Part shown: positions 2,173 to 38,964 of the stretch, one piece after another
Layout: each line of letters begins with the position of its first letter
Numbering within the stretch: the first letter of the stretch is position 1
The notes under the pieces: model-generated
The model's input: the letters and a program-made list of their open reading frames with translations, nothing else
What the model was told of the DNA's origin: nothing
Databases searched by the model: none
From: a virus
Taxonomy: Duplodnaviria > Heunggongvirae > Uroviricota > Caudoviricetes
Reading direction: 5' to 3' (one strand)
Virus record (IMG/VR): IMGVR_UViG_3300037067_027626
Length of the DNA stretch: 53,123 bases
Translations under genes and position numbers: made by a program

Positions 2173-3882
2173 TTGTGCGGAATAATTGGGATTATATCAA
2201 ATAAACCTGTAATTAACGAATTACTCAATAGTCTTTCTGTTATGTCTTACAGAGGACACGATTCTTTTGGTGTGGCGTTAGTAGATGATAATAAATTGAT
2301 TATTAATAAAGACGTATGCGAGATACGGGATTTAAAAGTAGATAAAACACTAAAAAGCAAGATAGGTCTTGGTCACAACCGTTGGGCTTCGGTTGGGAAA
2401 GTAACAAAAGAAAACGCCCATCCTTTTACCGATTGTTGTGGACAATTAGCCATCGCCCACAATGGTAATATTGAAAACTATAAGCAACTCAAAGATACAT
2501 TAATTAAACGTGGTCATATATTTACATCTGAAACCGATTCAGAAGTTATCTCGCATTTAATTGAGCATTATTTAAAACGGCATGGCTTTAATAATGCGTT
2601 TAGTATAGCGATTCGATGCTTGAAAGGTTCTTATGCGGTTGTAGCAATTCATAGAGACTATCCTTATTTAATGGTTAGTAGAAAAGATAGCCCATTGATG
2701 ATAGGCAGAAATAATGATTCTGTATATGTAGCCAGTGATGAGCAGGCATTTAACGGAATAGAGAATAAGACGGAGATAAAGGACTACCAAGTAATGAGTA
2801 TTTCGCTTGACGGTCATACCGAAGAAGTACACGAAGAAGAAACTCAAAAAAGCGGTTATGCCCATTATATGCTGAAAGAAATATACGAACAGCCTGATAC
2901 TTTGCTTGAAACACTGAAACAGGATAGAAATAAACTAACCAGCGTGTCAATGGACATTTTAAGAGCCAAGGATGTCATTTTAACCGCTTGTGGAACTTCA
3001 CGTTTTGCTACTATTGTAGGTAGATATTTGCTGTTAAAAATAGGTAAACGAATGGGTGAAACGGTAGTCGGTTCGGAACTTCAATACTTAGATGCTTCAT
3101 TTGGTGAAAATACATTAATCATAGCAGTATCGCAAAGTGGTGAAACTGCCGATGTTTTATCGGGTGTGAGATTAGCCAAGCAAAAAGGAAGTCCGATTGT
3201 TTCTATCATTAATAAACCGCTTTCATTATTAGAGAGATTGAGTAACGTAACCATTCCGATGAATTGTGGAGCAGAAATAGCGGTGGCTTCAACTAAGGCT
3301 TTTACGAGTGAATTGGTGATATTTTATCTCTTAGCCTACACATTAGCGAATAAATATGATGAGGGTATGGTGGAACTTTGCTCGTTGCCGAGTGCTATAA
3401 GAGAATGTCTATTGCAAATAGATAAAGTTAAGAAAGTTGCAGAAATGTTGTATACCACAGAACATATTTACTATATAGGGAAAGGTATAAATTTCGCCAT
3501 AGCTGGCGAATGTGCGTTAAAGTTCAAAGAAGTTTCTTATATTCATGCTGAGTCAATGGCGGCGGGCGAACTAAAACATGGCACACTCTCATTAATTGAA
3601 GAAGGAACACCAGTTATAGGAATTTGCCCCAATGATTATACGTATCAGGAAACTATAGCAAATTTGTACGAAATAAAAGCACGAAAAGGATTCGTTATAG
3701 GAATATCGGATAAGAATAATGATGTTTTCGATTCTTGGATACCGATACCGAAAGTTAAGGCTTTATATTATCCTCTAGTCTGTGTGGTAATCGGACAACT
3801 TTTGGCTTACTATGCCGCTATATTAAAAGGCATAAATCCCGACCTCCCCCGTTCACTTTGCAAGGCGGTGACAGTTGTTTAG
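2173..3882 (+). CDS. glmS: Glutamine--fructose-6-phosphate aminotransferase (isomerizing)
   Basis: N-terminal MCGIIG nucleophile, GHNRWA, AHNGNIEN, SQSGETAD, ELKHG, C-terminal NPDLPRSLCKAVTV. Confidence 0.97.
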   Translation: MCGIIGIISNKPVINELLNSLSVMSYRGHDSFGVALVDDNKLIINKDVCEIRDLKVDKTLKSKIGLGHNRWASVGKVTKENAHPFTDCCGQLAIAHNGNIENYKQLKDTLIKRGHIFTSETDSEVISHLIEHYLKRHGFNNAFSIAIRCLKGSYAVVAIHRDYPYLMVSRKDSPLMIGRNNDSVYVASDEQAFNGIENKTEIKDYQVMSISLDGHTEEVHEEETQKSGYAHYMLKEIYEQPDTLLETLKQDRNKLTSVSMDILRAKDVILTACGTSRFATIVGRYLLLKIGKRMGETVVGSELQYLDASFGENTLIIAVSQSGETADVLSGVRLAKQKGSPIVSIINKPLSLLERLSNVTIPMNCGAEIAVASTKAFTSELVIFYLLAYTLANKYDEGMVELCSLPSAIRECLLQIDKVKKVAEMLYTTEHIYYIGKGINFAIAGECALKFKEVSYIHAESMAAGELKHGTLSLIEEGTPVIGICPNDYTYQETIANLYEIKARKGFVIGISDKNNDVFDSWIPIPKVKALYYPLVCVVIGQLLAYYAAILKGINPDLPRSLCKAVTVV

Positions 3883-4609
3883 GATAATATTGTTTGATTT
3901 AGATGGTACTTTAACCGAAAGTAGATTACCTATATCAAAGGAAACTGCGGATTTGGTTAAGGAGTTGCTAAAAGATAAATATGTTGGTGTGGTATCAGGT
4001 TGTTCAATAGACCAGATGAAATATCAACTCGGCAGTGTCTTATCGTCTGATAATTTGAATAACCTATGTTTGTTTCCTTCAACTGCTACGTGTCTTTATG
4101 TTTATGACGGAGGTTGGGTTTGTAAATATAGAGAGGTACTAAATGGAATATTAGCAGAACGGATTAAACAAACTTTACTGAAAGTCTGTAGAAATATTAA
4201 AGTGGAAGAACCTTATGGGGAAGTGATAGACGATAGAGGCGGACAGATAGCGATTGCATTAATGGGGATTAATGCCCCGTTAGATTACAAAGCGTTATAT
4301 GACCCTTATTATAGAAAAAGATTATCGGTGAAACCGATACTAGAACAAGAATTGCCTGAATGCGAAATAACTATTGGTGGCACTACTACGATTACGGTAA
4401 CAAGAAAAGGAATAGATAAAACTAACTGCATATACTTGGTTAAGAAATATTTTAATATTAACAAGGATGAAATATTGTTTATTGGCGATACGATATTTGA
4501 GAATGGTAATGATTACCCAATGAAAAAAGCTGGCGTGGACTGTATTCAAGTGGCTAATCCAGATGAAACCAAAAGAATTATAGGGAGATTGTTGTGCGGT
4601 ATAAATTAA
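3875..4609 (+). CDS. HAD-superfamily IIB phosphomannomutase-like phosphohexomutase/phosphatase
   Basis: Motif I FDLDGTLT; GGTTTITV..KGIDK; IGD..FENGNDYP typical of eukaryotic-type PMM. Confidence 0.85.
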   Translation: MFRIILFDLDGTLTESRLPISKETADLVKELLKDKYVGVVSGCSIDQMKYQLGSVLSSDNLNNLCLFPSTATCLYVYDGGWVCKYREVLNGILAERIKQTLLKVCRNIKVEEPYGEVIDDRGGQIAIALMGINAPLDYKALYDPYYRKRLSVKPILEQELPECEITIGGTTTITVTRKGIDKTNCIYLVKKYFNINKDEILFIGDTIFENGNDYPMKKAGVDCIQVANPDETKRIIGRLLCGIN

Positions 4610-5025
4610 AAGAATTAGAGGAATCAGATATTAACGAAAGTTTATTTGAAACGCTTGGCAACTTGAGAAGTTGTGGGGAATTAACAGTCGATAAAGCAAG
4701 ATTGTTGCTAAAGGGGATTAAAGTAAATCCATTACATAAAATATATGTTGCGTTAGATGGTAAAGATATTGTGGGTATAGCTACGATTATTATTGAGCAA
4801 AAATTCATCAGAAACGGTGGTAAGGTAGGGCATATTGAAGATGTGGCTACTAACAAGGATTATGAAAGAAAAGGAATAGCGTCAGCAATCATACAGAAAC
4901 TCATTAGTATAGCAAAAGAACAAGGTTGCTACAAAGTAATATTAGACTGTAGTGAAGAAAATAAACCATTTTATAAGAAAAACGGATTCAAAGAGTGTGA
5001 ATACGAAATGAGGCTGGATTTGTGA
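4594..5025 (+). CDS. Glucosamine-6-phosphate N-acetyltransferase (GNA1-type GNAT)
   Basis: IEQKFIRNGGKVGHIEDV, KGIASAII, GCYKVILDCSEENKPFYKKNGF match the GNA1 pattern; adjacent to glmS. Confidence 0.88.
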   Translation: MRYKLKELEESDINESLFETLGNLRSCGELTVDKARLLLKGIKVNPLHKIYVALDGKDIVGIATIIIEQKFIRNGGKVGHIEDVATNKDYERKGIASAIIQKLISIAKEQGCYKVILDCSEENKPFYKKNGFKECEYEMRLDL

Positions 5026-5450
5026 AAATTATAGCCTGTACGGTTGCGTTTAATTTTGTCCACTTAGGGCATTGGAAGCACATTGAAGAAGCCAATAAAC
5101 TCGGTGATAAACTTATTGTTATCGTAGCAAATGATGACTCGTTAAGAAAGCAAAAAGGCGGGCATAATTACCCTTTAATGGATAGGTTGGGTATATCTTA
5201 TCCGATAAAATGGCTTAATCCCTTGAATGAAGTTGTGGTTTCCATAGATACAGACGGTACAGTGGCAGAGACTTTAAAAATGATTCGCCCTCAAGTTTTT
5301 GCGAAAGGCGGAGACAGGGATTCGCATAATAGAATGCCTCAGAAAGAACTAGATGTCTGTAAAGAAATAGGGTGCGAAATAGTATACGGAGTTGGTAATG
5401 TATTAAATAGCAGTTCTCGGTTAAAAGAAGTTATATTAAAGAATTATTAA
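5022..5450 (+). CDS. Cytidylyltransferase-like (HIGH) nucleotidyltransferase
   Basis: FNFVHLGH (HxGH), LIVIVAND, FAKGGDR, final SSS motif. Confidence 0.85.
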   Translation: MKIIACTVAFNFVHLGHWKHIEEANKLGDKLIVIVANDDSLRKQKGGHNYPLMDRLGISYPIKWLNPLNEVVVSIDTDGTVAETLKMIRPQVFAKGGDRDSHNRMPQKELDVCKEIGCEIVYGVGNVLNSSSRLKEVILKNY

Positions 5451-5452: not shown

Positions 5453-6895
5453 TTGAAGAAAAATCTAGTTATATTAACGTGTTTCATTATATTTGCGGTT
5501 ATTATATTTGTACCGCCGATTGCTAAAGGTTATATCTATCCCAATATCGGGCATGATACCGCCGCCCACATGGAAATATTCGATAGAATTAAAATCGGTG
5601 AGCCTATCCCCCCAGTCAGGTATAATGCTTATTATATTGTCGGTTATCCCCTTGATTTAATAGCTAATATATTTCATACAAATAAAGATGTTCTCTTTTT
5701 CTGGTTTAATTATATTGTGTTGTTCGGTATAGGTTTATCTTTATTCTATATCCTGAAAAACCTCATTAATCTGGCTACGGGTCTTTTGACTTTACTTATA
5801 CCTATTTTTGCCTCATACAGTATATTACTACTCTTTTATAGTGGCGTTATCTTTAATTTAATTAATATATGTATCATATTACCCTTTGCTATCTATTTTA
5901 TGATTAAGTATATTCAGACAATTAAGGCTAAATATGCTGTTGGTTCGGTATTAATGTTTGCCTTATTCTCGATATTCCATATTACAGGTATCTATTTGTC
6001 TTTTATGGTAATTGGGGGATTGTTTCTATATGTATTGTATGTTTGGCGAACAAAACAACGCATTACCAAGAAATATCTGATAATCGGAAGTTTATTAGTA
6101 ATATTCAGTGTCGGGATGTTCATATTGAAGAATAGGATTTCTTTAGGGGTGGAATCCATTATGGTAGGGGGCAATTCAAATGCTAGTGGCTCAATAATGG
6201 TAGGAATCAATCCAAGTGCAAATGAGTCGATAAAAGGATTCCCGCTTATAGAGCAAACATTCATGTATTATCTTTCGCCTATGGTATTAGCGGTCATAAT
6301 CCTTTGCTTTATCAGAATATTCAATCTTTACAAAAAGATTAATAATATAGAAAAATTATTAATAATTATATTCTTATTATTATCTCTCACTATGTTGCCA
6401 GCAATGTTTGGTATATTTTCCCCCATTCCTTTAGTACAGGGATTGGATTTTGCTGTTTTCTTTTCCATACTGGCGACTATATTAGTCGGGATAATTCTGA
6501 GAATGGATAAGAATATAGTAATACCCGTAATATTAATAGTCTTAATCGGCTTTGGTTCTTTCCAGAATATCTATAAGGTAACAGTAGGTTATAATTCCGC
6601 ATTAACCAATCCAGATATAGAAGCGATTGAATACGTGAATAGTCTAACGGCGGATAGTTTTAGCGTTACCAAGAATATAGATATGAGTATTTATAAAAGA
6701 TATGTGAATAAACCTTTTAAAAGTTCAGATGCGGCAATATTAATAGATAGGAATGAACTTATGAGTTCAGGAGGAACATCGTATTTAAAACTTACTCCAC
6801 AAGACTCAGAATATTTCAAAGTAATAAAAACCTTCAGTGAAGGCGATGTTGTAGTGACTGTTTATGGAGATGAAAATATCGGAGTAATAAAATGA
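5453..6895 (+). CDS. Multi-pass membrane protein, probable GT-C-fold glycosyltransferase
   Basis: About 10-11 TM segments; acidic first external loop (GHDTAAHME); soluble C-terminal domain. Confidence 0.55.
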   Translation: MKKNLVILTCFIIFAVIIFVPPIAKGYIYPNIGHDTAAHMEIFDRIKIGEPIPPVRYNAYYIVGYPLDLIANIFHTNKDVLFFWFNYIVLFGIGLSLFYILKNLINLATGLLTLLIPIFASYSILLLFYSGVIFNLINICIILPFAIYFMIKYIQTIKAKYAVGSVLMFALFSIFHITGIYLSFMVIGGLFLYVLYVWRTKQRITKKYLIIGSLLVIFSVGMFILKNRISLGVESIMVGGNSNASGSIMVGINPSANESIKGFPLIEQTFMYYLSPMVLAVIILCFIRIFNLYKKINNIEKLLIIIFLLLSLTMLPAMFGIFSPIPLVQGLDFAVFFSILATILVGIILRMDKNIVIPVILIVLIGFGSFQNIYKVTVGYNSALTNPDIEAIEYVNSLTADSFSVTKNIDMSIYKRYVNKPFKSSDAAILIDRNELMSSGGTSYLKLTPQDSEYFKVIKTFSEGDVVVTVYGDENIGVIK

Positions 6896-8025
6896 AAATA
6901 CTTCAAGCCTTTGAGTATATGTCTTTACAGCATGGCGGTGGAACGGTTGATATTGTTTATAAACTCTCTAAATCGCTTCAACGAAAGGGACATGAAGTTA
7001 CTATAGCCACAAGTGATTATGAGGTTGATTGGAATTATCTGGAAGGTTTGAATGGCGTACATGTCAGGATGTATCGTAATTGGTTTAATTTATTAGGTAT
7101 GTGTATGCCATTGAATATAGTTAACTTAGATATTAAAAGATATGATGTTATCCATTTGCATACTTACCGTAGTTTTATCAATATAGTATTATCCAGTAAA
7201 GCACTTAAATATAAAATTCCTTATATACTGGACTCGCATGGCTCAAATGCGAAAATTTCTAAAACCTTGTTTAAATCATTTTATGATATAACATTCCGCA
7301 GATTATTACATGGGGCGAGTAAAGTGATTGCCGAAACAGAAAATGGAGTCGATGAATATAAATCTTTAGGTATAGAGGAAAGTAAAATAGAAGTATTGCG
7401 TTCTTTTATAGATATAAGCGAGTTTAATCAAGTTCCTTTGTATGGGTTATTCCGAGAAAAATATAAGTTAAGGTCAATACCTATCATATTGTTTGTTGGC
7501 AGGATAAATAAGATAAAAGGCTTAGATTTTCTTATGGAATCCTTTGCTCAATTATTAAAAACAAAAGAAGCAGTTTTGGTTATAGTTGGTCAGGATGATG
7601 GATATAAAGAGGAATTAGAAATTTTAAGACATAATCTAGGTCTTTGGGATGATGTGATTTACACAGGTTTTTTAAATGGAAATGAGAAAAAATCCGCAAT
7701 GGTAGATGCAAATATGTTAATCCAACCCTCAATAAGTGAAGCAGGTGCAAGACCTTCTATTGAGGCATTATTATGTGGAACTCCCGTTGTAGTTACCGCT
7801 TTTACGGGCGCTGGTAAAGAAATAGAAACAATGGATGGCGGTTATTTGGTGGGATATGGTGATATTAAAGGTTTAAGTAACATAATGCAACATATCATTG
7901 ATAATAAAGAATTTGCCCAAATAAAAACACATCACGCACAGAGATATATTAGAAATAATTTCTCATTGGAGAAACAGGTAGAAAGATACGAAAAAATATA
8001 TCAAAAATCTATTGACAGTCATTAA
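6892..8025 (+). CDS. Glycosyltransferase family 4
   Basis: HGGG N-terminal loop, LFVGRINKIKG, PSISEAGARPSIEALLCGTPVV (EX7E). Confidence 0.92.
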   Translation: MKILQAFEYMSLQHGGGTVDIVYKLSKSLQRKGHEVTIATSDYEVDWNYLEGLNGVHVRMYRNWFNLLGMCMPLNIVNLDIKRYDVIHLHTYRSFINIVLSSKALKYKIPYILDSHGSNAKISKTLFKSFYDITFRRLLHGASKVIAETENGVDEYKSLGIEESKIEVLRSFIDISEFNQVPLYGLFREKYKLRSIPIILFVGRINKIKGLDFLMESFAQLLKTKEAVLVIVGQDDGYKEELEILRHNLGLWDDVIYTGFLNGNEKKSAMVDANMLIQPSISEAGARPSIEALLCGTPVVVTAFTGAGKEIETMDGGYLVGYGDIKGLSNIMQHIIDNKEFAQIKTHHAQRYIRNNFSLEKQVERYEKIYQKSIDSH

Positions 8026-8076: not shown

Positions 8077-8247
8077 ATGGTAGATTTAATAAATATAAAA
8101 GAATTGCGTAATAGTTTAGGATTAAGTCAGCAGCAATTTGCACAGAAACTAGGTGTTGGATTGATGACTGTTAGCCGTTGGGAAAGAGGAAAAAGTAAAC
8201 CATCGCACTTAGCACTTGAAAAGATTAAGAAGATAATACCTAAATAG
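8077..8247 (+). CDS. XRE/Cro-family HTH regulator (56 aa, absent from ORF track)
   Basis: Manual translation MVDLINIKELRNSLGLSQQQFAQKLGVGLMTVSRWERGKSKP... is a canonical HTH_3 pattern. Confidence 0.9.
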   Translation: MVDLINIKELRNSLGLSQQQFAQKLGVGLMTVSRWERGKSKPSHLALEKIKKIIPK

Positions 8248-19162: not shown

Positions 19163-21623
<2,461 letters not shown>

Positions 21624-31297: not shown

Positions 31298-31317
31298 GAA
31301 GTGTATGAATATCTTAC
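31180..31317 (+). ncRNA. Putative omegaRNA of TnpB2 (scaffold to ~31297, guide from 31298; boundaries approximate)
   Basis: By analogy to tnpB 3' ends: GCCTGTGGAG...GAAGCAGGAA...AACGG; structure not folded computationally. Confidence 0.55.
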
Positions 31318-31931: not shown

Positions 31932-31932
31932 A

Positions 31933-32127: not shown

Positions 32128-32141
32128 TTAGAGGAATAAAT

Positions 32142-32330: not shown

Positions 32331-33426
32331 GGTAGTTTGTATATGTGGGACACGTCCAGAACTTATAAGATTATCCGAAGTGATAAAGAAATTGGACTTA
32401 TATACTAATCATATCTTTGTTCACACCAATCAGAGTTACGATTATGAGTTAAACCAGGTATTCTTTGATGAATTAAAAATAAGAAAACCTGATTATTTAT
32501 TAAATGTAAAAGCGGAAACCATAGGTGAGCAAATCGGTAATATAATGACGCAAACAGAAAAAGTTTTACTCAAAGAAAACCCCGATGCAGTATTAATATT
32601 GGGAGATACCAATTCCGCATTATCATGTATTGTGGCGAAAAGGCTTCATATACCTATCTTTCATATGGAAGCGGGAAATCGTTCTTTCTCAGATTTAGTG
32701 CCCGAAGAAGTGAATAGACGCATCATCGACCATACTGCCGATTGCAATCTACCTTACACAGAACATGCTCGCAGAAATCTTTTAAGAGAGGGAATCCATC
32801 CGCAATTTATATTTGTAACGGGTTCGCCTTTAACCGAAGTATATGCGAATCATATAGATGAGATATATGCCTCTGATATTCTTAAACAAATGGGACTGAC
32901 AAAAGATAATTACATAGTTGCTTCACTTCATCGTGAGGAGAATATCACGGATTGGAGTATCCTTACTAAAGTTATTGAGGCATTTTACACATTATCAGAA
33001 AAATATAAGATGCCCGTAATCTTTTCTACCCATCCACGAACGAGGGCAAAGTTAAATCCCACTTCAGATGATAGGATAATATTTCATAAGCCATTCGGTC
33101 TTTTTGAATTTATTAAATTACAGCAGAACGCATTTATCACAATATCAGATTCAGGCACAATAAATGAAGATTCTGCCATATTAGGTATCCCCACAGTGAA
33201 TATTAGAGAATCACAAGAACGGTATGAAGTATATGATAGTGGGAACTGTGTTATTAGTGGCTTATCTAAAGAGAACATTATAAACTGTGTAGATTTAGTT
33301 AGAAAACAGATAAATGTTAATTTTAAAATTCCACATGATTATATAGATAAGAATTGCTCAGATAAAGTAATCAGATTAATCATGGGATATACAGGGATAA
33401 TAAAAAAGAAGATATATGGTGAATAA
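32323..33426 (+). CDS. Non-hydrolysing UDP-N-acetylhexosamine 2-epimerase (FnlC/CapG/WecB family)
   Basis: GTRPELIRL, HTNQSYDYEL, LGDTNS, HMEAGNRS, VPEEVNRR, LHREEN, SDSGTINE. Confidence 0.94.
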   Translation: MTKVVCICGTRPELIRLSEVIKKLDLYTNHIFVHTNQSYDYELNQVFFDELKIRKPDYLLNVKAETIGEQIGNIMTQTEKVLLKENPDAVLILGDTNSALSCIVAKRLHIPIFHMEAGNRSFSDLVPEEVNRRIIDHTADCNLPYTEHARRNLLREGIHPQFIFVTGSPLTEVYANHIDEIYASDILKQMGLTKDNYIVASLHREENITDWSILTKVIEAFYTLSEKYKMPVIFSTHPRTRAKLNPTSDDRIIFHKPFGLFEFIKLQQNAFITISDSGTINEDSAILGIPTVNIRESQERYEVYDSGNCVISGLSKENIINCVDLVRKQINVNFKIPHDYIDKNCSDKVIRLIMGYTGIIKKKIYGE

Positions 33427-34270
33427 AGTTATAATTTCGCTTCCAGCATACAATGAGGAAAGTTACATAGGTAGCCTAGTGTTGAAATGTAAACAGTATG
33501 GGGAAGTCTTAGTCTGTAATGATGGTAGTAAAGATAGAACAGCAGAGATAGCTCGTTTAGCAGGGGCTAATGTAATTTCGCATGAAAAGAATTTAGGATA
33601 TGGGGCAACCATAAAAACCATAATGAGTGAAGCACTAAAACAAAATGCCGATATTTTAGTTATCCTTGATAGTGACGACCAGCATGATACGAAAGACATC
33701 TCAAATATGATAAAAGCGATTACGGATGGTAATGATTTAGCAATAGGCAACCGCAACTTAAAACAAATGCCCAAGTTTAGAATAGTGGGGCAAAAAATTC
33801 TCTCTTATTTTACGGATAAAATATCAGGCAGTAAAGTATCTGATAGCCAGTCGGGTTTCAGGGCTTTCTCTAAAAAGGCTCTACAGACCTTAAAGTTAAA
33901 AGAAGATGGCATGGCGATAGTAAGCGAGCAAATTAGCGAGGCAACAAAGGCTGGTCTTAAAATCGTTGAAGTGCCTATATCGGTTAAATATACAAAGGAT
34001 GGGCATACTTTTAATCCTATAATACAGGCAAGCAATTCCCTCACAAGAATTTTCGTTTTAATTGCGAAGCAAAAACCATTAATGTTCTTTGGTATTGCTG
34101 GTCTTATTATGACAGTATTAGGATTACTCGCTGGTATAGGTGGCTACAACTCTTTTATGCGACACGAAGTGTTACCTGTCGGTACTTTATTAATAGCGGT
34201 GATGCTTCTTATTATAGGGATACTATGTATCTTTACGGGTATCATCTTGAATGCGGTGAAACGAGAATGA
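33416..34270 (+). CDS. DPM1-like GT2 polyprenol-phosphate glycosyltransferase with two C-terminal TM helices
   Basis: LPAYNEE, NDGSKDRT, NLGYG, LDSDDQH, DSQSGFRA, EVPISVKY; hydrophobic C-terminus. Confidence 0.9.
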   Translation: MVNKVIISLPAYNEESYIGSLVLKCKQYGEVLVCNDGSKDRTAEIARLAGANVISHEKNLGYGATIKTIMSEALKQNADILVILDSDDQHDTKDISNMIKAITDGNDLAIGNRNLKQMPKFRIVGQKILSYFTDKISGSKVSDSQSGFRAFSKKALQTLKLKEDGMAIVSEQISEATKAGLKIVEVPISVKYTKDGHTFNPIIQASNSLTRIFVLIAKQKPLMFFGIAGLIMTVLGLLAGIGGYNSFMRHEVLPVGTLLIAVMLLIIGILCIFTGIILNAVKRE

Positions 34271-35412
34271 ACTTACTTTTTATACATGAAATAAGTTGGT
34301 ACAAGGTTATTTTTGACTGGCAAACCCTTCCAAGTTTGTTGGCTCAGCGTGGTCATAATGTCTATATTGTAGATTACGAAAAAGAATGGAAGAAAGAATA
34401 CCCATTTGATTTAATCAGTCCTAAAATGGAAATAAAAACACAACGTATTTATTCCCCGATAACTTTAATTAGACCTCAGTTTATAAAAATCCCCATATTA
34501 AGTAGAGTCTCCGCCTTTATTTCACATTATTTTGCGATTGAGAAAACGATAAAAGAAAAAAAGATAGACGCTATCATACTTTACTCTGTGCCGACAAATG
34601 GATTACAGACTATTAACTTAGCCCATAAATATAAAATCCCTGTTATATTCCGTTCTATTGATGTATTAAATCAGTTAGTACCCAAACCTCTATCATGGAT
34701 TACTAAACAGATGGAAAAATATGTTTATAGACATACGGATATGGTTTTGCCTATAAACTTAGGATTGCTACAATATGTTGTGAATATGGGAGCAAAAAAA
34801 GTCGAAACATTACCGCTAGGAATAGATAAACAGTTCAAACCGATGAATACTAATGGACTTCGTAAGGAAATGGGATGGGATAATTATAAAATAGTGTTAT
34901 TTGTTGGTACTTTGCCGATGTTTAGTGGTTTGGATAGAGTAATAAAAGATTTTCCAAGATTATTAAAAGAATATCCTGAAACAAAGTTGTTTATTGCTGG
35001 CGATGGGAAACAAAGGGATAAATTAGAAAATATTATAGATGAATTAGGATTAAGGGATAGCATCTATATATCAGGTTATGTGAAATACGAGAAAATACCT
35101 GAAATTATAAATGTCGCAGATGTTTGTATCAATCCCTTTGATATATGTAAAGCAACACAAGATATTTTCCCCACTAAAGTCATTCAATATATGTCATGCG
35201 GAAAGCAAGTAGTTTCAACGCCATTATCAGGTTTGGATGATTGCAGAGCGGTTATATTTAATGAAAATATAGTCGATGGTTTAATTACATACTTTAAAGA
35301 AAAACCGCAATATGATGTATTAAGTTATGTGAAAAGACACGATTACGATGTCATATTAAATCAATTAGAGGGAATATTAAATGAGAGTCGCATTATTAAA
35401 TCCAAAACTTAA
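34267..35412 (+). CDS. Glycosyltransferase family 4
   Basis: LFVGTL, IAGDG, ADVCINP, PTKVIQYMSCGK; start at ATG 34267 (ATGA overlap). Confidence 0.88.
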   Translation: MNLLFIHEISWYKVIFDWQTLPSLLAQRGHNVYIVDYEKEWKKEYPFDLISPKMEIKTQRIYSPITLIRPQFIKIPILSRVSAFISHYFAIEKTIKEKKIDAIILYSVPTNGLQTINLAHKYKIPVIFRSIDVLNQLVPKPLSWITKQMEKYVYRHTDMVLPINLGLLQYVVNMGAKKVETLPLGIDKQFKPMNTNGLRKEMGWDNYKIVLFVGTLPMFSGLDRVIKDFPRLLKEYPETKLFIAGDGKQRDKLENIIDELGLRDSIYISGYVKYEKIPEIINVADVCINPFDICKATQDIFPTKVIQYMSCGKQVVSTPLSGLDDCRAVIFNENIVDGLITYFKEKPQYDVLSYVKRHDYDVILNQLEGILNESRIIKSKT

Positions 35413-36799
35413 AACTTGGTCGCCTAATGTTTATCCGCCATTAGGATTATGCTACATTGCTTCGGCATTGGAAAACGCAGGGCATAAGGTATCTATTATA
35501 GATTTAAACGCAAGTAAAATTAGTGATAAGAAATTAGCGAAGCAAATATCTGATGTGGATGTTATCGGTATTACGGGATTAATCACAGAATACAATGAAG
35601 TAATTAGACTATCAAATGTGGCAAAGTTATCCAATAAACATGCGAAGATAGTTATTGGTGGTGCTTTGGCTACAACTCATACCAAAGAAGTATTATCAAA
35701 GTCTAGTGCGGATTATGTGGTCATTGGTGAAGGTGAAATAATCATAGTTAAGTTATTATCCGCCATAGAGAATAATGAGGATTTGAGTAGTATTAAAGGA
35801 TTAGCCTATAAATCAAACGGATTAGTTCAAATGAATGATATACCAGATATAATAGAAAACCTTGATACCATATCATTTCCTGCGAGGCGTTTATTAAATA
35901 TGGAACAATATACCACTCATCATTTCAAGAGTTATGGTATGAAAACGCAGGATATTAAAAGCACAACGCTATTATCAAGTAGGTCTTGTCCCTACAAATG
36001 CGAGTTCTGTTATCATGGATTGCATGGTTACAAATGGCGTGGTCGAAGCCCACAAAATATGATAACAGAAATAATGCAACTACATTATGAATATGGATTT
36101 GATGGCTTTGTGTTTAATGATGATACCTTTGTCGTAGATAAGAAAAGAGTCTTGGAATTTTGTCGATTATTAAAAGAGAGTAATCTAAATATCAAATGGT
36201 ATTGTAACGGGCGTGTAAATTTAATGGATGAGGAAATTATACGAGCCATGAAAGAATCAGGGTGTGTCGGGATTGCCTACGGAATAGAATCGGGGAATCA
36301 AGACATACTAAACTCAATAAAAAAGGCAATAACCATAGAACAAATAGAGAAAATCACCGCATTAACTAAAAAATACGGGATTTATGTCACAGGATACTTT
36401 ATGATAGGTATTTTGGGCGAAACTAAGGAAAATATTGAGCAAACTTTGGAATTTGCCCGTAAATTAGACCTAGATTTCTATGGATTTACTATGACAAGCC
36501 CCGTAATCGGTACTCCGATGTATTTTAAAGCACAAGAACAGGGATTTAAAGTCACAAAGGAACTTGAGGATTTTAGTTTCTCCTTAAGTATCAACATGAC
36601 CAAAGATGTAACCGATAAAGAACTGGAACAATACAACAAAGATGCGTTTCGGGAATTCACTATAGAGAAAAGATATGGGAAACATTATTTATTTAATTTG
36701 TCTCTATGGTTTGATGGTTTTAAATCGGTATTATTTTTATTGGGCAAACGAAATGTCGGGATACTATTCCAAAAGGCATGGGGGGTAATCAAGGGTTAG
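35381..36799 (+). CDS. B12-binding radical SAM protein (class B methyltransferase-like)
   Basis: YPPLGLCYIAS, GGALAT, IGEGE, SSRSCPYKCEFC (CxxxCxxC), GIESG, GYFMIG. Confidence 0.93.
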   Translation: MRVALLNPKLKTWSPNVYPPLGLCYIASALENAGHKVSIIDLNASKISDKKLAKQISDVDVIGITGLITEYNEVIRLSNVAKLSNKHAKIVIGGALATTHTKEVLSKSSADYVVIGEGEIIIVKLLSAIENNEDLSSIKGLAYKSNGLVQMNDIPDIIENLDTISFPARRLLNMEQYTTHHFKSYGMKTQDIKSTTLLSSRSCPYKCEFCYHGLHGYKWRGRSPQNMITEIMQLHYEYGFDGFVFNDDTFVVDKKRVLEFCRLLKESNLNIKWYCNGRVNLMDEEIIRAMKESGCVGIAYGIESGNQDILNSIKKAITIEQIEKITALTKKYGIYVTGYFMIGILGETKENIEQTLEFARKLDLDFYGFTMTSPVIGTPMYFKAQEQGFKVTKELEDFSFSLSINMTKDVTDKELEQYNKDAFREFTIEKRYGKHYLFNLSLWFDGFKSVLFLLGKRNVGILFQKAWGVIKG

Positions 36800-36911: not shown

Positions 36912-37262
36912 ATGATTGAGTTAACGGATGAAGAAACCATATATTATAACACTATAAAGGAACTGAATAGCGAGACAAGTAGATATGGGCATTGGGTAAC
37001 ATTTGGCGAGATAATTAAAAGATTAAAAAGCAAGGGTATAAAGATTAGTTTACTACAGAATAAAGAAGATAAAATATTAGATAAACTTTGTTCGATTGGT
37101 ATTATTGAATTTAATTTAGTTGACGTTTATGTGTTTGGTATGAAGTTCGGTTTTTCTGGCTTTGAAGATGCTTATCGTGATTATAAATATAGGTTAGTTG
37201 AATTAAACAAATTGGATGAAGAATTATTAGCAAAAGGGAGAGTAAGTGAGAAGATTTCTTAG
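36912..37262 (+). CDS. Hypothetical protein, possible winged helix
   Basis: ORF overlapping the next start; helical N-terminus with VTFGEIIKRL. Confidence 0.5.
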   Translation: MIELTDEETIYYNTIKELNSETSRYGHWVTFGEIIKRLKSKGIKISLLQNKEDKILDKLCSIGIIEFNLVDVYVFGMKFGFSGFEDAYRDYKYRLVELNKLDEELLAKGRVSEKIS

Positions 37263-38964
37263 AACGTATTATCCTGAAGTATTAATCATCGGTGCTATCT
37301 TTACTATTTTAATGATAGACCTAGCACCCGATTTTACTTTTATTAATAAAGCCGCAGATTCAGTCGGGTATATTTACTCAGCAAAATACCTTTACCCGTC
37401 TTACCACACCTCAGCACCTTTATATCTTTTATTGAGTCATGTGTTTCTATGGATTCCGTTTGGTACTGATGCTTGGAGAATGGGGCTTTTATCTGTCTTT
37501 AGTACAACAGGTGCTTGTGTCTTCATTTATTTAATCATACGAAATCTCACACAGAAAAGATGGTTAGCCATACTTGGGACAATTGCTTATGGTACAAGTG
37601 CCTTAGTATTGAGTCAAAGTGTAATTGTAAACACCTATGCCTTCACTACATTCTTAGCAATCGGGGCTTACTATTTTGCCACATTAAAAAAATGGAAACT
37701 CGCCTCTTTGATGTTATGTTTTGCTATAGGGGTGCATTTGCTTGGTGTTATCGTATGGATGCTGTTCTTTATCTTTAAGGATTTCCGCAAGAACTGGAAA
37801 GCCATAGCGATTTCTATTTCGGGTTTCTTATTCTATCTTTATATCCCCATAACAAGCAGACCGCCTTATATGTGGCTACCAAATCCCGCAGATACCAATA
37901 TTGTAAGTGCAGTAGTTGGGGATACCATTAGTGTCATATCAATGTTGGTGGGTAATATCAGTATATGGGCTTTGCCCAAAAAGATATTCGATACCATAGG
38001 ATTAATCGGAGTAAGTTTAGGGGTAGTTCTTGCCATACCGCTTATTTATTACATTAAGACGATAGGGAAAAAGATTTTAATTCAACCTATATTCTGGTTA
38101 GCCTTTGTGCCTATCATACTGTTTGTGGGCGAACTCGATATGAACACCTTTGATTATTGTATGATAGGCGTTCCGTTTCTTATTATTATGGCTTGCTTGG
38201 GTATTAAACAAATCACAGAACGCTATCATGTAAGGGCTAAGGTATTAGTTTATGCTTCATATGTATGTATCATAGGAGTTGGAGTATTCAACGGTTATTA
38301 TTTCGATATAGGAAAAGTAACTGACCCGAATATGAGTGCTTCCAAATTATATTATGAGGAATTCCCTAAGATACCTAGTGATGGAATCTTTATGCCCAAC
38401 GGTGGATGGAACTGGGAAGCAATCTTCCTGTATAACAGGGAGAATGGTAAACATATCTATCCCATATGTATTGATATTTTGCCCAATGAGATTTATCGGG
38501 AGCAGTTAAAGAAAGACGGGATTAAACTGGAGTTTGATGAAGAAGCGGGGTTAAGTTTGGCGGCAATGAAAACCGCACAGAGTATAATAGAGTTGAATGA
38601 TAATGTTTATACTACGGTTTATACTGATGTCAAGACCTTCGGTTGCGTGGTAGTAAACGCAAATCACGATAAAAGTTTGGTAATGCCTGTTGATGAAGCA
38701 CTCATAAAAAAGAATGAGACAAATCCTGATTGGCAATGGATACCCGATAATCCTTATGAGATTATGCGAACAAGTTTGTTTATGACTAAATGGGGCTATG
38801 CGGTAGTGAGTCCGTATTATAATTTCCGCACATTTATGATATTGTTCTTATTAATCTACGGTTCTATGATAGTAGTACCCAAGTTGTTCAATAGGAGAAA
38901 AAAGAAAAATGAGAATACCATTCCTAAAAAAGAAAAAGAAGGTAGTCCAACAAGTAGCCTTTGA
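37246..38964 (+). CDS. DUF2723-like GT-C membrane glycosyltransferase
   Basis: LAPDFTFINKAADSVGY...HTSAPLYLLL first-loop motif, SQSVIVNTYA, YLYIP; about 11 TM segments plus soluble domain. Confidence 0.7.
   Translation: MRRFLRTYYPEVLIIGAIFTILMIDLAPDFTFINKAADSVGYIYSAKYLYPSYHTSAPLYLLLSHVFLWIPFGTDAWRMGLLSVFSTTGACVFIYLIIRNLTQKRWLAILGTIAYGTSALVLSQSVIVNTYAFTTFLAIGAYYFATLKKWKLASLMLCFAIGVHLLGVIVWMLFFIFKDFRKNWKAIAISISGFLFYLYIPITSRPPYMWLPNPADTNIVSAVVGDTISVISMLVGNISIWALPKKIFDTIGLIGVSLGVVLAIPLIYYIKTIGKKILIQPIFWLAFVPIILFVGELDMNTFDYCMIGVPFLIIMACLGIKQITERYHVRAKVLVYASYVCIIGVGVFNGYYFDIGKVTDPNMSASKLYYEEFPKIPSDGIFMPNGGWNWEAIFLYNRENGKHIYPICIDILPNEIYREQLKKDGIKLEFDEEAGLSLAAMKTAQSIIELNDNVYTTVYTDVKTFGCVVVNANHDKSLVMPVDEALIKKNETNPDWQWIPDNPYEIMRTSLFMTKWGYAVVSPYYNFRTFMILFLLIYGSMIVVPKLFNRRKKKNENTIPKKEKEGSPTSSL

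What the first reader, a model, noticed from the sequence alone, without database searches (positions are those of the whole stretch)
2173..38964. A virus-like element carrying a near-complete protein glycosylation island
Seen: about 37 kb with roughly 30 sugar-synthesis, modification and transfer genes, interleaved with tiny ORFans and flanked by phage-style hypotheticals; no housekeeping genes anywhere in 53 kb. Established: large eukaryotic viruses encode glycan pathways, while prokaryotic viruses mostly carry a few GTs or serotype-conversion genes. Inference: this element builds its own lipid-linked glycan from fructose-6-P up to transfer onto protein, to coat its virion or to re-coat the host surface.
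Basis: partly seen in the sequence, partly recalled or inferred. Interest (0 to 1): 0.8.

Follow-up and report, generated by a model that had tools for sequence, protein, structure and literature searches.

The report
Virus-like element encoding protein glycosylation
A 125-kb mobile, probably viral, element of Dehalococcoidia bacteria spends about 37 kb on its own machinery for making sugars and attaching them to proteins, including an archaeal-type oligosaccharyltransferase that I found in no described phage.

Summary
Window 2173-38964 carries about 40 co-directional genes. Thirty-two are sugar-synthesis, tailoring or transfer genes, two are TnpB insertions, and the rest are small unknowns. 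The 53 kb contain no tRNA, Rfam family or housekeeping gene.

The island encodes:
- a eukaryote-style GlcNAc supply (GlmS, a GNA1-type acetyltransferase, a HAD mutase, a small nucleotidyltransferase);
- at least four further nucleotide-sugar branches;
- an AglJ/PpgS-like polyprenyl-phosphate glycosyltransferase;
- four membrane GT-C enzymes: an intact AglB, a TMEM260-type enzyme and two PMT_2/DUF2206-like ones.

No flippase or WecA/PglC-type primer was recognised, so "near-complete" is fair.

The AglB belongs to a well-supported clade of unbinned metagenome sequences nested inside Dehalococcoidia AglBs, so the host is probably bacterial. Relatives, including a 68-kb contig, keep the same island core. 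The window's GC is 34%, against about 50% at host AglB loci.

Virus identity is likely but unproven: I saw no capsid or terminase gene. The glycan's target is not shown.

No AglB homologue was found in 50,697 GenBank phage records. The scan noted a similar AglB-bearing element before, on other DNA (e1-1034173).

The parts
2173..3882 (+). GlmS, glutamine--fructose-6-phosphate transaminase (569 aa)
   Evidence: NF001484 567 bits (cut-off 381) and TIGR01135 541 bits (cut-off 418). 62-65% identical in relatives L003-L006.
3875..4609 (+). HAD-IIB hexose-phosphate mutase (PMM / alpha-phosphoglucomutase type)
   Evidence: Pfam PMM 9.5e-12. Best solved relatives are alpha-phosphoglucomutase 4BND (3e-28) and eukaryotic PMMs.
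4594..5025 (+). GNA1-type glucosamine-6-phosphate N-acetyltransferase (GNAT)
   Evidence: The nine best solved relatives are all GNA1-type enzymes (3FB3, 3T90, 2VEZ, 1I1D, 4AG7, 2HUZ; E 1e-26 to 4e-15).
5022..5450 (+). Small cytidylyltransferase-fold nucleotidyltransferase (RfaE domain II-like); inferred to be a sugar-1-P nucleotidyltransferase
   Evidence: Pfam CTP_transf_like, TIGR02199 1.3e-14 below cut-off, PDB 3GLV and 3ELB. 71% identical in L004-L006.
5453..6895 (+). GT-C fold membrane glycosyltransferase, PMT_2/GT39-like (480 aa, about 11 TM)
   Evidence: No Pfam or NCBIfam hit. 11 TM segments. Atlas structure matches to PMT_2 clusters at TM 0.67-0.71. Conserved next to GlmS and GT4 in all relatives.
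6892..8025 (+). GT4 glycosyltransferase
   Evidence: Pfam Glycos_transf_1 and Glyco_transf_4. 46-48% identical in relatives.
8077..8247 (+). 56-aa XRE-type HTH protein just upstream of AglB, preceded by a near-consensus sigma-70-like site at 8012-8040
   Evidence: HTH_3/HTH_31 in the gene table. Promoter-like site matching 11 of 12 positions, with TG, (such sites are not enriched overall).
8291..10498 (+). AglB/STT3-type oligosaccharyltransferase (735 aa)
   Evidence: TIGR04154 519.9 bits against a cut-off of 450. Pfam STT3 and AglB_core-like. Aligns to A. fulgidus AglB-L 3WAJ at 1.4e-56 with all motifs. D44, D160, H162, E329, WWDYG 525-529, D579 and K586 are invariant in 23 homologues.
10657..11628 (+). 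GalE-like NDP-sugar 4-epimerase/SDR; sits immediately upstream of AglB in the relatives (downstream of it here)
   Evidence: 41-49% identical in relatives.
11621..12751 (+). TnpB (IS605 OrfB) insertion 1
   Evidence: Pfam OrfB_IS605 and Cas12f1-like_TNB.
12857..15042 (+). NDP-sugar 6-dehydrogenase (TviB/WecC-like) plus an SDR of the UDP-xylose-synthase/ArnA-C type: the uronic-acid branch
   Evidence: TIGR03026 365 bits (cut-off 190). PRK15182 320 bits, below its cut-off. PRK11908 118 bits, below its cut-off.
15026..16832 (+). Split transketolase (N half 15026-15775, C half 15918-16832)
   Evidence: Pfam. Conserved at 56-65% in all relatives. Also found next to AglB in Chloroflexota/Dehalococcoidia MAG loci L012, L049 and L044.
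16819..17637 (+). TylF-type sugar O-methyltransferase
   Evidence: Pfam TylF 1.8e-40.
17619..19162 (+). GT-C fold membrane protein (395 aa, DUF2206-like) plus a conserved 119-aa 2-TM partner
   Evidence: Atlas TM 0.86 to a DUF2206 cluster; nearest feature cluster labelled Viruses/Uroviricota. Family of 78 clusters. Not found in 401 sampled Dehalococcoidia genomes at E<=1e-20.
19162..21064 (+). Gmd (GDP-mannose 4,6-dehydratase) and an Fcl-like GDP-fucose synthase
   Evidence: TIGR01472 386 bits (cut-off 415). NF047922 303 bits (cut-off 500). 50% and 74% identical to adjacent genes in Dehalococcoidaceae MAG locus L039.
21046..24453 (+). Three SAM methyltransferase-like genes and a Glyco_trans_1_2 glycosyltransferase
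   Evidence: No counterpart in the relatives I fetched, so this is variable cassette.
24453..28320 (+). Formyltransferase, RmlB-like 4,6-dehydratase, PseC/ArnB-like aminotransferase and a GT2: the formamido-dideoxyhexose branch
   Evidence: 54-64% identical in the 68-kb relative.
28359..33426 (+). CapE/FnlA-like dehydratase (28359-29363), split CapF (SDR half 29360-30031, cupin half 31569-31931) interrupted by TnpB 2 (30021-31280), and a CapG/WecB-type 2-epimerase (32323-33426): a UDP-L-FucNAc-type branch
   Evidence: The SDR half matches Cap5F 2ZKL residues 1-203 at 4.6e-20 and the cupin half matches residues 256-355 at 1.6e-4. In the relative the two halves are also separate ORFs, without a TnpB between them.
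33416..36799 (+). AglJ/PpgS-like polyprenyl-phosphate glycosyltransferase (GT2, 2 C-terminal TM), GT4, and a B12-binding radical SAM enzyme
   Evidence: TIGR04182 135 bits and NF058614 111 bits, both below cut-off. TM segments. 43-50% identical to genes beside AglB in Dehalococcoidia MAG loci.
37246..38964 (+). TMEM260-type GT-C glycosyltransferase (572 aa, about 10 TM plus a C-terminal domain)
   Evidence: A profile of 50 homologues hits the solved TMEM260 structure 9RQL at 2.5e-20. AF2 model pLDDT 93.9. All top PDB fold matches are GT-C enzymes. 33% identical in the 68-kb relative.
39577..43090 (+). Block of about 12 small (48-150 aa) 1-3 TM membrane proteins and one 254-aa TM/coiled-coil protein
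   Evidence: No Pfam or PHROG family.
43151..43531 (+). Bacterial-type type IV prepilin (126 aa)
   Evidence: Pfam N_methyl 6.8e-10. PHROG pilin. The N-terminal DNA matches Dehalococcoidia genomes at 74-84%.
43871..45157 (+). Membrane-anchored coiled-coil protein with a Thr-rich linker and a beta-rich C-terminal domain (428 aa): candidate exported glycosylation target
   Evidence: 1 TM; 6 sequons against 7.9 expected. Head domain is an ORFan. AF2 of the head has pLDDT 54 and is not usable.
45181..45576 (+). LuxR/GerE-type HTH regulator
   Evidence: Pfam GerE 4.8e-15.
46646..53123 (-). Divergent block of about 25 small ORFans ending in a 240-aa PRAI-like TIM-barrel protein (52401-53123) of a family seen mostly in phages
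   Evidence: Atlas clusters are 56-95% Viruses/Uroviricota. 43.5% identical to the 735-kb uncultured phage LR756501.

Best explanation
The window is part of a roughly 125-kb extrachromosomal, most likely viral, element. Its host is a Dehalococcoidia (Chloroflexota) bacterium. As a conserved core module the element carries a largely self-sufficient, lipid-linked protein-glycosylation system descended from the host lineage's own AglB locus.

Proposed mechanism:
(1) Sugar supply (homology shown, activities inferred). GlmS, a GNA1-type acetyltransferase, a HAD-type mutase and a small nucleotidyltransferase make an NDP-GlcNAc pool from fructose-6-P, independently of the host.
(2) Diversification (inferred from families). 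Further branches use this pool and others: Gmd/Fcl plus methyltransferases; 4,6-dehydratase, aminotransferase and formyltransferase; CapE/F/G-like; a 6-dehydrogenase plus decarboxylase-like SDR; a GalE-like epimerase; and a split transketolase, TylF methyltransferase and B12-radical SAM enzyme.
(3) Lipid-linked assembly (inferred). An AglJ/PpgS-like GT2 loads a sugar onto polyprenyl phosphate, and soluble GT4/GT2 enzymes extend it.
(4) Flipping. No element gene is identified; the step is presumably done by the host or by one of the small membrane proteins.
(5) Transfer. AglB moves the glycan onto Asn of exported proteins. Three further GT-C enzymes add sugars outside the membrane. One is a TMEM260-type homologue that probably O-glycosylates beta-sandwich (IPT/TIG-like) domains.
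(6) Target (inferred, least certain). I think the likeliest targets are the element's own exported proteins: the membrane-anchored fibre, the small membrane proteins, and the giant TIG/mucin-like proteins encoded just upstream. That would mean virion or infected-cell surface glycoproteins.
For: Gene content and curated cut-offs.

AglB: motifs intact and aligned to 3WAJ.

Other enzyme assignments: GNA1 type; HAD mutase; split CapF; TMEM260 homology at E 2.5e-20, with a confident GT-C model; GT-C folds of the 480-aa and 395-aa proteins.

Host lineage: the nearest cellular AglBs are Dehalococcoidia at 35-45% identity, archaea only 21-24%. In the tree, the window plus nine unbinned metagenome sequences form one clade (SH-aLRT 97) nested in Dehalococcoidaceae/Dehalococcoidales. 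Fcl is 74%, Gmd 50%, Ugd 49% and the GT4/GT2 genes 43-50% identical to genes beside AglB in Dehalococcoidia MAGs. The window also has a bacterial-type prepilin and a LuxR regulator. SD cores precede 51% of genes against 7% background.

Mobile or viral rather than chromosomal: the contig is 124,964 bp. GC is 34% in island and flanks, against a median of 50.5% (minimum 41%) at 41 Chloroflexota AglB loci. The 53 kb hold no tRNA, Rfam or housekeeping gene. The flanks are ORFans with a median of 76 aa. None of the 80 MAG-derived loci falls in the element clade. The 395-aa GT-C family was not found in 401 sampled Dehalococcoidia genomes. The PRAI-like flank gene belongs to a family seen mostly in Uroviricota and is 43.5% identical to a 735-kb phage. 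In the 68-kb relative there are an HNH/NUMOD3 endonuclease-like gene and a tail-fibre PHROG domain.

Core module: the same order of about 25 island genes is kept in the 68-kb relative at 45-64% identity, while the flanks share almost nothing.

Position: the island lies co-directionally between giant TIG/mucin-like ORFs (gene table) and a membrane-protein/fibre block.
Against: No capsid, portal, terminase or packaging ATPase was seen in the window or in the parts of the relative I could read (and the gene tables).

Pattern scans found no relative of the 395-aa GT-C family, and only one distant AglB/STT3 relative (L001, 25% identity), in IMG/VR, so no curated virus collection vouches for the lineage.

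No flippase and no WecA/PglC-type enzyme was recognised. The AglJ-like, Gmd, Fcl and several other assignments fall below curated equivalog cut-offs.

Sequons are not enriched in the fibre or in any other window protein.

No CRISPR-spacer or near-identical IS link to a host genome was found.

If the particle is a cytoplasmically assembled tailed phage, its virion proteins would never meet AglB, which acts outside the membrane.
Confidence: 0.55

Rival explanations
1. Same element and same chemistry, but the purpose is conversion of the host cell surface. During infection or carriage the island re-glycosylates host S-layer proteins, pili and other envelope proteins. This would block superinfection by competing viruses or change recognition, as serotype-converting phages do with GtrABC.
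For: AglB and the other GT-C enzymes act on the outer face of the membrane, where host envelope proteins are. The element encodes a bacterial-type pilin that host machinery would have to process. It has the GtrB-like GT2 plus GT-C logic, and relatives carry a GT2-GtrA fusion. Sugar-tailoring cassettes differ between relatives, as in O-antigen-type arms races. Element proteins show no sequon enrichment.
Against: Conversion modules in known phages are small accessory morons. Here about 30% of the genome is kept as a syntenic core across relatives whose AglBs are only 45-53% identical. The island lies in line with the structural-like block rather than near any lysogeny genes. No integrase or repressor module was seen in the window.
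Confidence: 0.3
2. The element is a non-viral mobile element (a large plasmid or other extrachromosomal element) of Dehalococcoidia that spreads an alternative surface-glycosylation system. There is no virion.
For: No capsid, portal or terminase was detected in anything I could read. No close relative was found in IMG/VR or GenBank phages. The element has many membrane proteins and a pilin.
Against: No relaxase, T4SS, partition or plasmid replication domains were found in the window. The PRAI-like gene family is predominantly phage-borne. A tail-fibre domain hit and an HNH/NUMOD3 gene occur in the relative. The blocks of tiny ORFans are typical of phages. Earlier, unchecked scan notes report group I introns and a DnaD/DnaC-type phage-like replication module upstream.
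Confidence: 0.2
3. It is an ordinary chromosomal glycan locus of an unbinned, low-GC bacterium (for example a small-genome episymbiont), not a mobile element.
For: AglB-centred glycan loci with many of the same families exist in Dehalococcoidia chromosomes. Small-genome bacteria also have low GC, many hypothetical proteins and type IV pilins.
Against: The 53 kb hold no tRNA, Rfam or housekeeping gene. About 45 flank ORFs have a median of 76 aa and no family. No genome-derived locus falls in the element's AglB clade. The 395-aa family was not found in 401 Dehalococcoidia genomes. The same layout recurs on contigs of only 50-125 kb.
Confidence: 0.07
4. The sugar pathways serve glycosylation of the element's DNA, to evade restriction, rather than of proteins.
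For: Phage glycosyltransferases commonly modify DNA (review text quoted in PMC12619734).
Against: Four membrane-embedded GT-C enzymes, including AglB, and a polyprenyl-phosphate GT2 act on lipid-linked donors at the membrane. No hydroxymethyl-pyrimidine or DNA-glucosyltransferase families were found in the window.
Confidence: 0.02

Closest known systems
Chromosomal AglB loci of Dehalococcoidia (NCBIfam TIGR04154, 'oligosaccharyl transferase, archaeosortase A system-associated')
   Same: Same AglB family (passes the curated cut-off). The element clade is nested within these sequences. Neighbouring GT4, AglJ-like GT2, WecB-like, B12-rSAM, Gmd/Fcl, Ugd and split transketolase genes are shared at 33-74% identity.
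   Different: The element version is 34% GC against about 50%. It adds its own GlcNAc supply, three extra GT-C enzymes and more sugar branches. It sits among ORFans on a 125-kb contig without cellular markers in the part I read. Its 395-aa GT-C family was not found in 401 sampled genomes of the class.
Archaeal Agl N-glycosylation pathways (e.g. Haloferax volcanii AglJ/G/I/E/D/B; A. fulgidus AglB-L, PDB 3WAJ)
   Same: AglB with identical catalytic motifs. An AglJ-like GT2 would charge a polyprenyl phosphate. Soluble GTs and tailoring enzymes are clustered around the OST.
   Different: Only 21-24% identical to archaeal AglBs. The setting is bacterial (prepilin, LuxR). The lipid carrier and glycan are unknown.
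Autonomous glycosylation of giant eukaryotic viruses (Mimivirus L619 GFAT + L316 GNAT + UAP; chlorovirus PBCV-1), PMC4691112 and PMC9614988
   Same: A virus-borne, eukaryote-style route to UDP-GlcNAc in which acetylation acts on GlcN-6-P (PMC4691112; GNA1-type enzyme here). Several rare-sugar branches and many GTs are encoded, with the glycan meant for the particle surface.
   Different: PMC4691112 does not mention an oligosaccharyltransferase (zero occurrences of 'oligosaccharyl'), and the PBCV-1 glycans it describes are not on N-x-S/T sequons. This element uses a lipid-linked, membrane GT-C route with AglB, and its host is a bacterium.
Serotype-converting phage GtrABC modules
   Same: The logic of a GT2 that makes a polyprenyl-phosphate sugar plus a GT-C that transfers it outside the membrane. 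Relatives even carry a GT2-GtrA_DPMS_TM fusion.
   Different: Gtr modules are three accessory genes that modify O-antigen. Here about 32 genes form a conserved core and include a protein N-oligosaccharyltransferase. No GtrA was found in the window.
Mycobacteriophage virion glycosylation (Freeman et al. 2023, cited in PMC12619734) and glycan islands of large phages
   Same: Phage-encoded glycosyltransferases that decorate virion proteins.
   Different: Those use a few soluble GTs acting in the cytoplasm on capsid and tail proteins. They have no OST, no GT-C enzymes and no nucleotide-sugar supply of this breadth. No AglB homologue was found in 50,697 GenBank phage records.
TMEM260, the animal protein O-mannosyltransferase for IPT domains (PMC10214176; PDB 9RQL)
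   Same: The family profile of the 572-aa protein matches 9RQL at E 2.5e-20 over about 415 positions. It has the GT-C fold and an invariant Asp in the first loop. A 1061-aa TIG/IPT-domain protein is encoded a few kb upstream.
   Different: About 20-25% identity at most. The single-sequence Pfam score is just under the cut-off (23.5 against 24.2). Donor sugar and acceptor are unknown.

Membership tests
AglB/STT3 oligosaccharyltransferase (TIGR04154, PF02516 + PF22627) | Score above the curated family cut-off | tested here: met
   TIGR04154 519.9 bits against a cut-off of 450. PF02516 83 bits (cut-off 24.5) and PF22627 55 bits (cut-off 27).
AglB/STT3 oligosaccharyltransferase (TIGR04154, PF02516 + PF22627) | Catalytic motifs: first acidic motif (D44), D-x-H (D160, H162), TIXE-type loop motif (TTSE, E329), WWDYG (525-529), DK motif (D579...K586) | tested here: met
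   All align to the corresponding motifs of A. fulgidus AglB-L 3WAJ and are invariant among 23 homologues.
AglB/STT3 oligosaccharyltransferase (TIGR04154, PF02516 + PF22627) | Multi-span N-terminal membrane domain plus a C-terminal globular domain | tested here: met
   10 hydropathy peaks in residues 9-454, followed by about 280 soluble residues carrying WWDYG. The simple hydropathy method may undercount the 13 helices.
AglB/STT3 oligosaccharyltransferase (TIGR04154, PF02516 + PF22627) | Transfer of a lipid-linked glycan to Asn in N-x-S/T | not testable with these tools
   Needs an enzyme assay or glycoproteomics.
Complete lipid-linked N-glycosylation pathway (pgl/agl type) | Priming enzyme that loads the first sugar on the polyprenyl phosphate | tested here: inconclusive
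   No PF00953 or PF02397 enzyme. One AglJ/PpgS-like GT2 with two C-terminal TM segments, at 135 and 111 bits, below cut-offs of 325 and 370.
Complete lipid-linked N-glycosylation pathway (pgl/agl type) | Flippase (Wzx/PglK/GtrA/AglR type) | tested here: not met
   No such Pfam or NCBIfam family among the ORFs of 80 aa or more. The 119-aa conserved membrane protein has only 2 TM segments.
Eukaryote-type UDP-GlcNAc route (GFAT, GNA1, mutase, pyrophosphorylase) | GFAT and a GlcN-6-P-specific GNAT present | tested here: met
   GlmS passes its cut-offs. The nine best solved relatives of the GNAT are GNA1-type enzymes.
Eukaryote-type UDP-GlcNAc route (GFAT, GNA1, mutase, pyrophosphorylase) | AGM1-type mutase and UAP1/GlmU-type uridylyltransferase | tested here: not met
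   The orthologous families are absent. A HAD-type mutase and a cytidylyltransferase-fold NTase are present instead. Whether they substitute is inference.
TMEM260-type protein O-glycosyltransferase | Sequence homology to TMEM260 and a GT-C fold | tested here: met
   Profile against 9RQL at E 2.5e-20. AF2 pLDDT 93.9; top fold matches are STT3, ArnT, ALG9 and Pmt4. The single-sequence Pfam score is 23.5 against 24.2.
TMEM260-type protein O-glycosyltransferase | O-mannosylation of IPT/TIG domains | not testable with these tools
   Only a lead: a TIG-domain 1061-aa ORF lies upstream.
Virus of bacteria (any realm) | Hallmark genes: major capsid protein, and terminase/portal or packaging ATPase | tested here: not met
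   None found by Pfam or PHROGs in the window or in about 60 kb of the 68-kb relative. The other ~72 kb of the window's contig could not be read, so absence is not shown.
Virus of bacteria (any realm) | Genes typical of phage genomes, and absence of cellular markers | tested here: met
   PRAI-like family mostly Uroviricota and 43.5% identical to a 735-kb phage. Tail-fibre domain and HNH/NUMOD3 in the relative. No tRNA, Rfam or housekeeping gene.
Serotype-converting Gtr module | GtrA flippase + GtrB GT2 + GT-C transferase as a three-gene accessory unit | tested here: not met
   GT2 and GT-C are present but no GtrA is in the window. The system is about 32 genes and is core to the lineage.

The most novel reading that the evidence does not exclude
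A lineage of large viruses infecting Dehalococcoidia, bacteria with an archaeal-style protein cell envelope, has for a long time maintained its own complete N- and O-protein glycosylation machinery. This includes an oligosaccharyltransferase and a TMEM260-type enzyme, and it builds glycoprotein virions at the host membrane. It would be the first prokaryotic counterpart of the autonomous glycosylation of giant eukaryotic viruses, and the first virus-encoded OST with a defined role.
Probability: 0.35. Interest if true: 0.85.

Novelty: new variant of a known kind. Interest (0 to 1): 0.7.

Why it matters
Viruses are generally held to borrow the host's oligosaccharyltransferase. Even giant viruses with their own sugar pathways have none described. 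The phage glycosylation known so far uses a few soluble transferases or three-gene serotype-conversion modules.

An element lineage that keeps about 30% of its genome for a membrane-based N- and O-glycosylation system would show that complete protein-glycosylation systems can be mobile. It points to glycan-based arms races in Dehalococcoidia, an environmentally important and hard-to-culture class. I found no paper in the held library discussing the AglB system of that class.

The compact OST, the GT-C set and the rare-sugar cassettes would also be raw material for glyco-engineering. The TMEM260 homologue gives a bacterial-side handle on an enzyme family so far studied only in animals.

Tried and rejected
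- Whole genome: none is held.
- Rest of the contig: the Logan contigs of the same element carry no DNA, so I could not read it.
- IMG/VR scans: the fibre protein, the 395-aa protein and its alignment found nothing. AglB and its alignment found only one distant STT3, L001.
- GenBank phages: no match for AglB or the 395-aa GT-C.
- PHROGs on 20 flank proteins: only pilin, LuxR and coiled-coil noise.
- Sequon statistics: no enrichment in any protein.
- Host linking by TnpB identity: best match 42%.
- Host linking by DNA or spacer search of 401 Dehalococcoidia genomes with 33124-53123: only pilin N-terminus similarity and weak short hits. The best short hit lies in no repeat array.
- Cluster names for NCBI-derived relatives: none recorded.
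- Fibre head domain: no homologues and a low-confidence fold (pLDDT 54). I did not search with it.
- Sigma-70-like promoter and terminator scans: not above shuffled expectation.
- Archaeal host, suggested by earlier scan notes: rejected on the AglB tree, the prepilin and the LuxR regulator.
- 'CapF truncated by TnpB2': rejected, because the two halves are separate ORFs in a relative that has no TnpB there.

Full report
**1. Observation**

The window is 34% GC throughout, has no tRNA and no Rfam family. Genes run on the + strand to 46.2 kb and on the - strand from 46.6 kb.

I scanned every ORF of 80 aa or more with Pfam, and the key ones with NCBIfam. Between 2173 and 38964 there are about 40 genes. 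Thirty-two belong to sugar synthesis, tailoring or transfer. Two are TnpB insertions, one is a 56-aa XRE-type HTH gene just before AglB, and the rest are small unknowns.

The flanks hold about 45 ORFs with a median of 76 aa. Apart from a bacterial-type prepilin, a LuxR HTH regulator and coiled-coil noise, they match nothing in Pfam or PHROGs.

**2. What the island encodes**

*Sugar supply.*
- GlmS passes its curated cut-offs.
- The adjacent GNAT has eukaryote-type GlcN-6-P N-acetyltransferases (GNA1) as its nine best solved relatives.
- The HAD-IIB protein is nearest to alpha-phosphoglucomutase 4BND and to phosphomannomutases.
- A 142-aa cytidylyltransferase-fold enzyme follows.
- The HAD, GNAT and NTase genes stay adjacent in relatives, with GlmS one small gene away (identities).

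I read the four genes as a four-step route from Fru-6-P to an NDP-GlcNAc. The logic is that of the eukaryote-like route encoded by Mimivirus (PMC4691112). The last two steps use non-orthologous enzymes, so they are inference.

*Further branches.*
- Gmd and an Fcl-like enzyme, followed by three methyltransferases and a GT.
- A formyltransferase, an RmlB-like dehydratase and a PseC/ArnB-like aminotransferase with a GT2.
- A CapE/FnlA-like enzyme, a CapF split into an SDR half and a cupin half, and a WecB/CapG-type 2-epimerase that passes its cut-off.
- A TviB-like 6-dehydrogenase with a decarboxylase-like SDR.
- A GalE-like epimerase.
- A split transketolase with a TylF methyltransferase.
- A B12-radical SAM enzyme.

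*Assembly and transfer.*
- An AglJ/PpgS-like GT2 with two C-terminal TM helices is the best candidate for charging polyprenyl phosphate. It scores below its cut-offs.
- There are two GT4, one further GT2 and one Glyco_trans_1_2 enzyme.
- Four membrane proteins have the GT-C fold:
  - AglB scores 519.9 bits against a cut-off of 450 for TIGR04154. All catalytic motifs align to A. fulgidus AglB-L and are invariant among homologues.
  - The 480-aa protein matches PMT_2/GT39 clusters and the 395-aa protein matches DUF2206 clusters (Atlas models, TM 0.70-0.86).
  - The family profile of the 572-aa protein hits the solved human TMEM260 O-mannosyltransferase at E 2.5e-20. Its AF2 model (pLDDT 93.9) matches only GT-C enzymes.

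*What is missing.* I recognised no Wzx/PglK/GtrA-type flippase and no WecA/PglC-type enzyme. "Near-complete" is therefore fair and "complete" is not.

**3. Whose genes are these?**

A scan of one genome per prokaryotic species, using an AglB alignment, returned Dehalococcoidia/Chloroflexota MAGs as the nearest cellular homologues. They are 35-45% identical over the full length. Archaeal AglBs reach only 21-24%.

In a maximum-likelihood tree of 90 sequences rooted on the archaea:
- The window's AglB groups with nine other sequences in one clade (SH-aLRT 97). All nine come from unbinned metagenome contigs.
- That clade is nested inside Dehalococcoidaceae/Dehalococcoidales.
- It is sister to two Chloroflexota MAG sequences.
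- None of the 80 genome-derived loci lies inside it.

Other links to the same bacteria:
- Genes beside AglB in Dehalococcoidia MAGs are the best cellular matches for the island's GT4 (43-48%), AglJ-like GT2, WecB-like gene, B12-rSAM, split transketolase, Ugd (49%), Gmd (50%) and Fcl (74% in L039).
- The window has a prepilin with a bacterial class III signal and a LuxR regulator.
- SD cores precede half of the genes.

This points to a bacterial, Dehalococcoidia host. It argues against the archaeal host guessed in earlier scan notes.

**4. A family of elements with the island as core**

The same element occurs in a second sample (L002, about 100% identical) and in Logan contigs. The collection records the window's AglB on a contig of 124,964 bp.

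More distant relatives (AglB 45-53% identical) keep the order HAD, GNAT, NTase, GlmS, GT-C, GT4, epimerase, AglB, split transketolase, TylF methyltransferase, GT-C, 119-aa protein (L003-L006).

I walked about 60 kb of one 68-kb contig. Its layout is:
- giant ORFs of 2394, 667 and 1430 aa without Pfam families;
- a TMEM260-like gene, an HNH/NUMOD3-like gene, a GT2-GtrA fusion and an FtsH-like protease;
- a roughly 40-kb island;
- small ORFs and a 496-aa coiled-coil protein.

About 25 island proteins are 45-64% identical to the window's, while the flanks share almost nothing. Some cassettes are specific to the window (Gmd/Fcl with the methyltransferases; Ugd with the SDR). Surface-glycan loci often show this kind of cassette turnover.

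The 395-aa GT-C family has 78 clusters at 90% identity, on contigs up to 102 kb. I did not find it at E<=1e-20 in 401 sampled Dehalococcoidia genomes.

The window is 34% GC in both island and flanks, and its relatives are 36-42%. Forty-one Chloroflexota AglB loci have a median of 50.5% and a minimum of 41%. The island is therefore not a fresh piece of host chromosome. It is an old, ameliorated, conserved part of a separate replicon.

**5. Is the replicon a virus?**

*For:*
- The window has no cellular markers, and its blocks of tiny ORFans resemble those of phages.
- The 240-aa PRAI-like protein belongs to a family whose Atlas clusters are 56-95% viral (Uroviricota). It is 43.5% identical to a gene of a 735-kb uncultured phage.
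- The nearest Atlas cluster of the 395-aa protein is labelled viral.
- The relative has a tail-fibre PHROG domain (1e-8) and an HNH/NUMOD3-like gene.
- Earlier scan notes, which I could not check, report group I introns, a DnaD/DnaC-type replication module and giant structural-like proteins upstream.

*Against:*
- I saw no capsid, portal, terminase or packaging ATPase.
- No close relative turned up in IMG/VR or among GenBank phages.

My estimate is about 70% virus, 20% other extrachromosomal element and under 10% chromosome.

**6. Function**

AglB and the other GT-C enzymes work on the outer face of the membrane. Their substrates must therefore be exported proteins.

Candidates encoded by the element:
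- the 428-aa TM-anchored coiled-coil protein with a Thr-rich linker and a beta-rich head;
- the dozen small membrane proteins and the pilin;
- just upstream of the window, giant proteins with TIG and mucin-like regions (gene table).

The TIG domain is worth noting because animal TMEM260 specifically O-mannosylates IPT/TIG domains (PMC10214176). This is a lead only.

Sequons are not enriched in any window protein. The fibre head has no homologues and gave no usable model. The target is therefore not shown.

I favour the element's own surface proteins as the target. The island is a large, conserved core that lies in line with the structural-like genes. Conversion of the host surface, as in Gtr-type serotype conversion, is a serious rival at about 0.3.

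**7. Comparison and novelty**

The closest cellular system is the Dehalococcoidia AglB locus. Functionally the island resembles archaeal Agl pathways, and among viruses it resembles the autonomous glycosylation of giant viruses. A review of giant-virus glycosylation (PMC4691112) does not mention an oligosaccharyltransferase at all.

Known phage glycosylation uses soluble GTs on DNA or virions, or three-gene Gtr modules (text quoted).

No AglB homologue was found in 50,697 GenBank phage records. A pattern scan of IMG/VR found only one distant STT3, beside a 2035-aa fn3 protein (L001). Full-text searches returned no paper on a phage- or virus-encoded OST, and none on AglB in Dehalococcoidia. The held library is incomplete, so this is not proof of absence.

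The scan itself noted a comparable AglB-bearing, virus-like element earlier on other DNA (e1-1034173). That one appears to carry a short AglB of another lineage.

I rate this a new variant of a known kind: virus or MGE-encoded glycosylation, here with a lipid-linked OST and GT-C system. Interest is 0.7.

Noticed in passing
window 29360-31931; L101 9346-10384: The CapF homologue is naturally split into an SDR half (223 aa) and a cupin half (120 aa). In the 68-kb relative the halves are adjacent overlapping ORFs. In the window TnpB 2 (30021-31280) sits exactly between them. The Logan assembly of the same element appears, from contig lengths, to break beside this TnpB, which would suggest presence/absence polymorphism or repeats.
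   Followed up: partly
L001 8822-10615 and 12171-18278 (IMGVR_UViG_3300025655_000107): An unrelated IMG/VR viral contig (38 kb) encodes a short 597-aa STT3-family protein (Pfam STT3 7e-28) next to a 2035-aa fn3-repeat protein. OST genes on predicted viral contigs are therefore not unique to this lineage.
   Followed up: partly
P0013, P0027, P0047, P0055, P0058 and others; L039: Many Dehalococcoidaceae-type AglBs are fused to an N-terminal DnaJ (PF00226) domain. I found no paper in the held library that mentions AglB or oligosaccharyltransferase together with Dehalococcoidia.
   Followed up: no
window 52401-53123 (-): A 240-aa PRAI-like TIM-barrel protein belongs to a family found mainly in phages (Atlas). 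It is 43.5% identical to a gene of the 735-kb uncultured phage LR756501/LR756503. Its function in phages is unknown to me.
   Followed up: partly
window 47220-47573 (-); L089 19101-19436: A 117-aa flank ORFan has a 43% identical homologue inside the relative's island, between the epimerase and AglB. A DUF6948 gene of 117 aa also sits between the relative's transketolase halves. Small genes evidently move in and out of the island.
   Followed up: no
window 8012-8247: A near-consensus sigma-70-type promoter (TTGACA, 17 nt, TG, TATATT) precedes a 56-aa XRE-type HTH gene directly upstream of AglB. This may be a dedicated regulator of the OST. The HTH gene is absent from the relatives L003-L005.
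   Followed up: no
window 43151-43231; G246:C35:8604-8689, G185:C24:25866-25908: The DNA encoding the pilin's N-terminal signal and helix is 74-84% identical to pilin genes in two Dehalococcoidia genomes. This fits processing by the host's prepilin peptidase.
   Followed up: partly
model of window 37246-38964 against BFVD: GT-C fold proteins are rare among known viral proteins. The best viral matches are uncharacterised proteins of Nitrosopumilus spindle-shaped viruses (E 4e-5) and one Oenococcus phage protein.
   Followed up: no
L007/L089 303-2126 (68-kb relative): The relative encodes a full FtsH-like AAA+/M41 membrane protease (607 aa) and a GT2-GtrA fusion just upstream of its island. Neither is in the window.
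   Followed up: no
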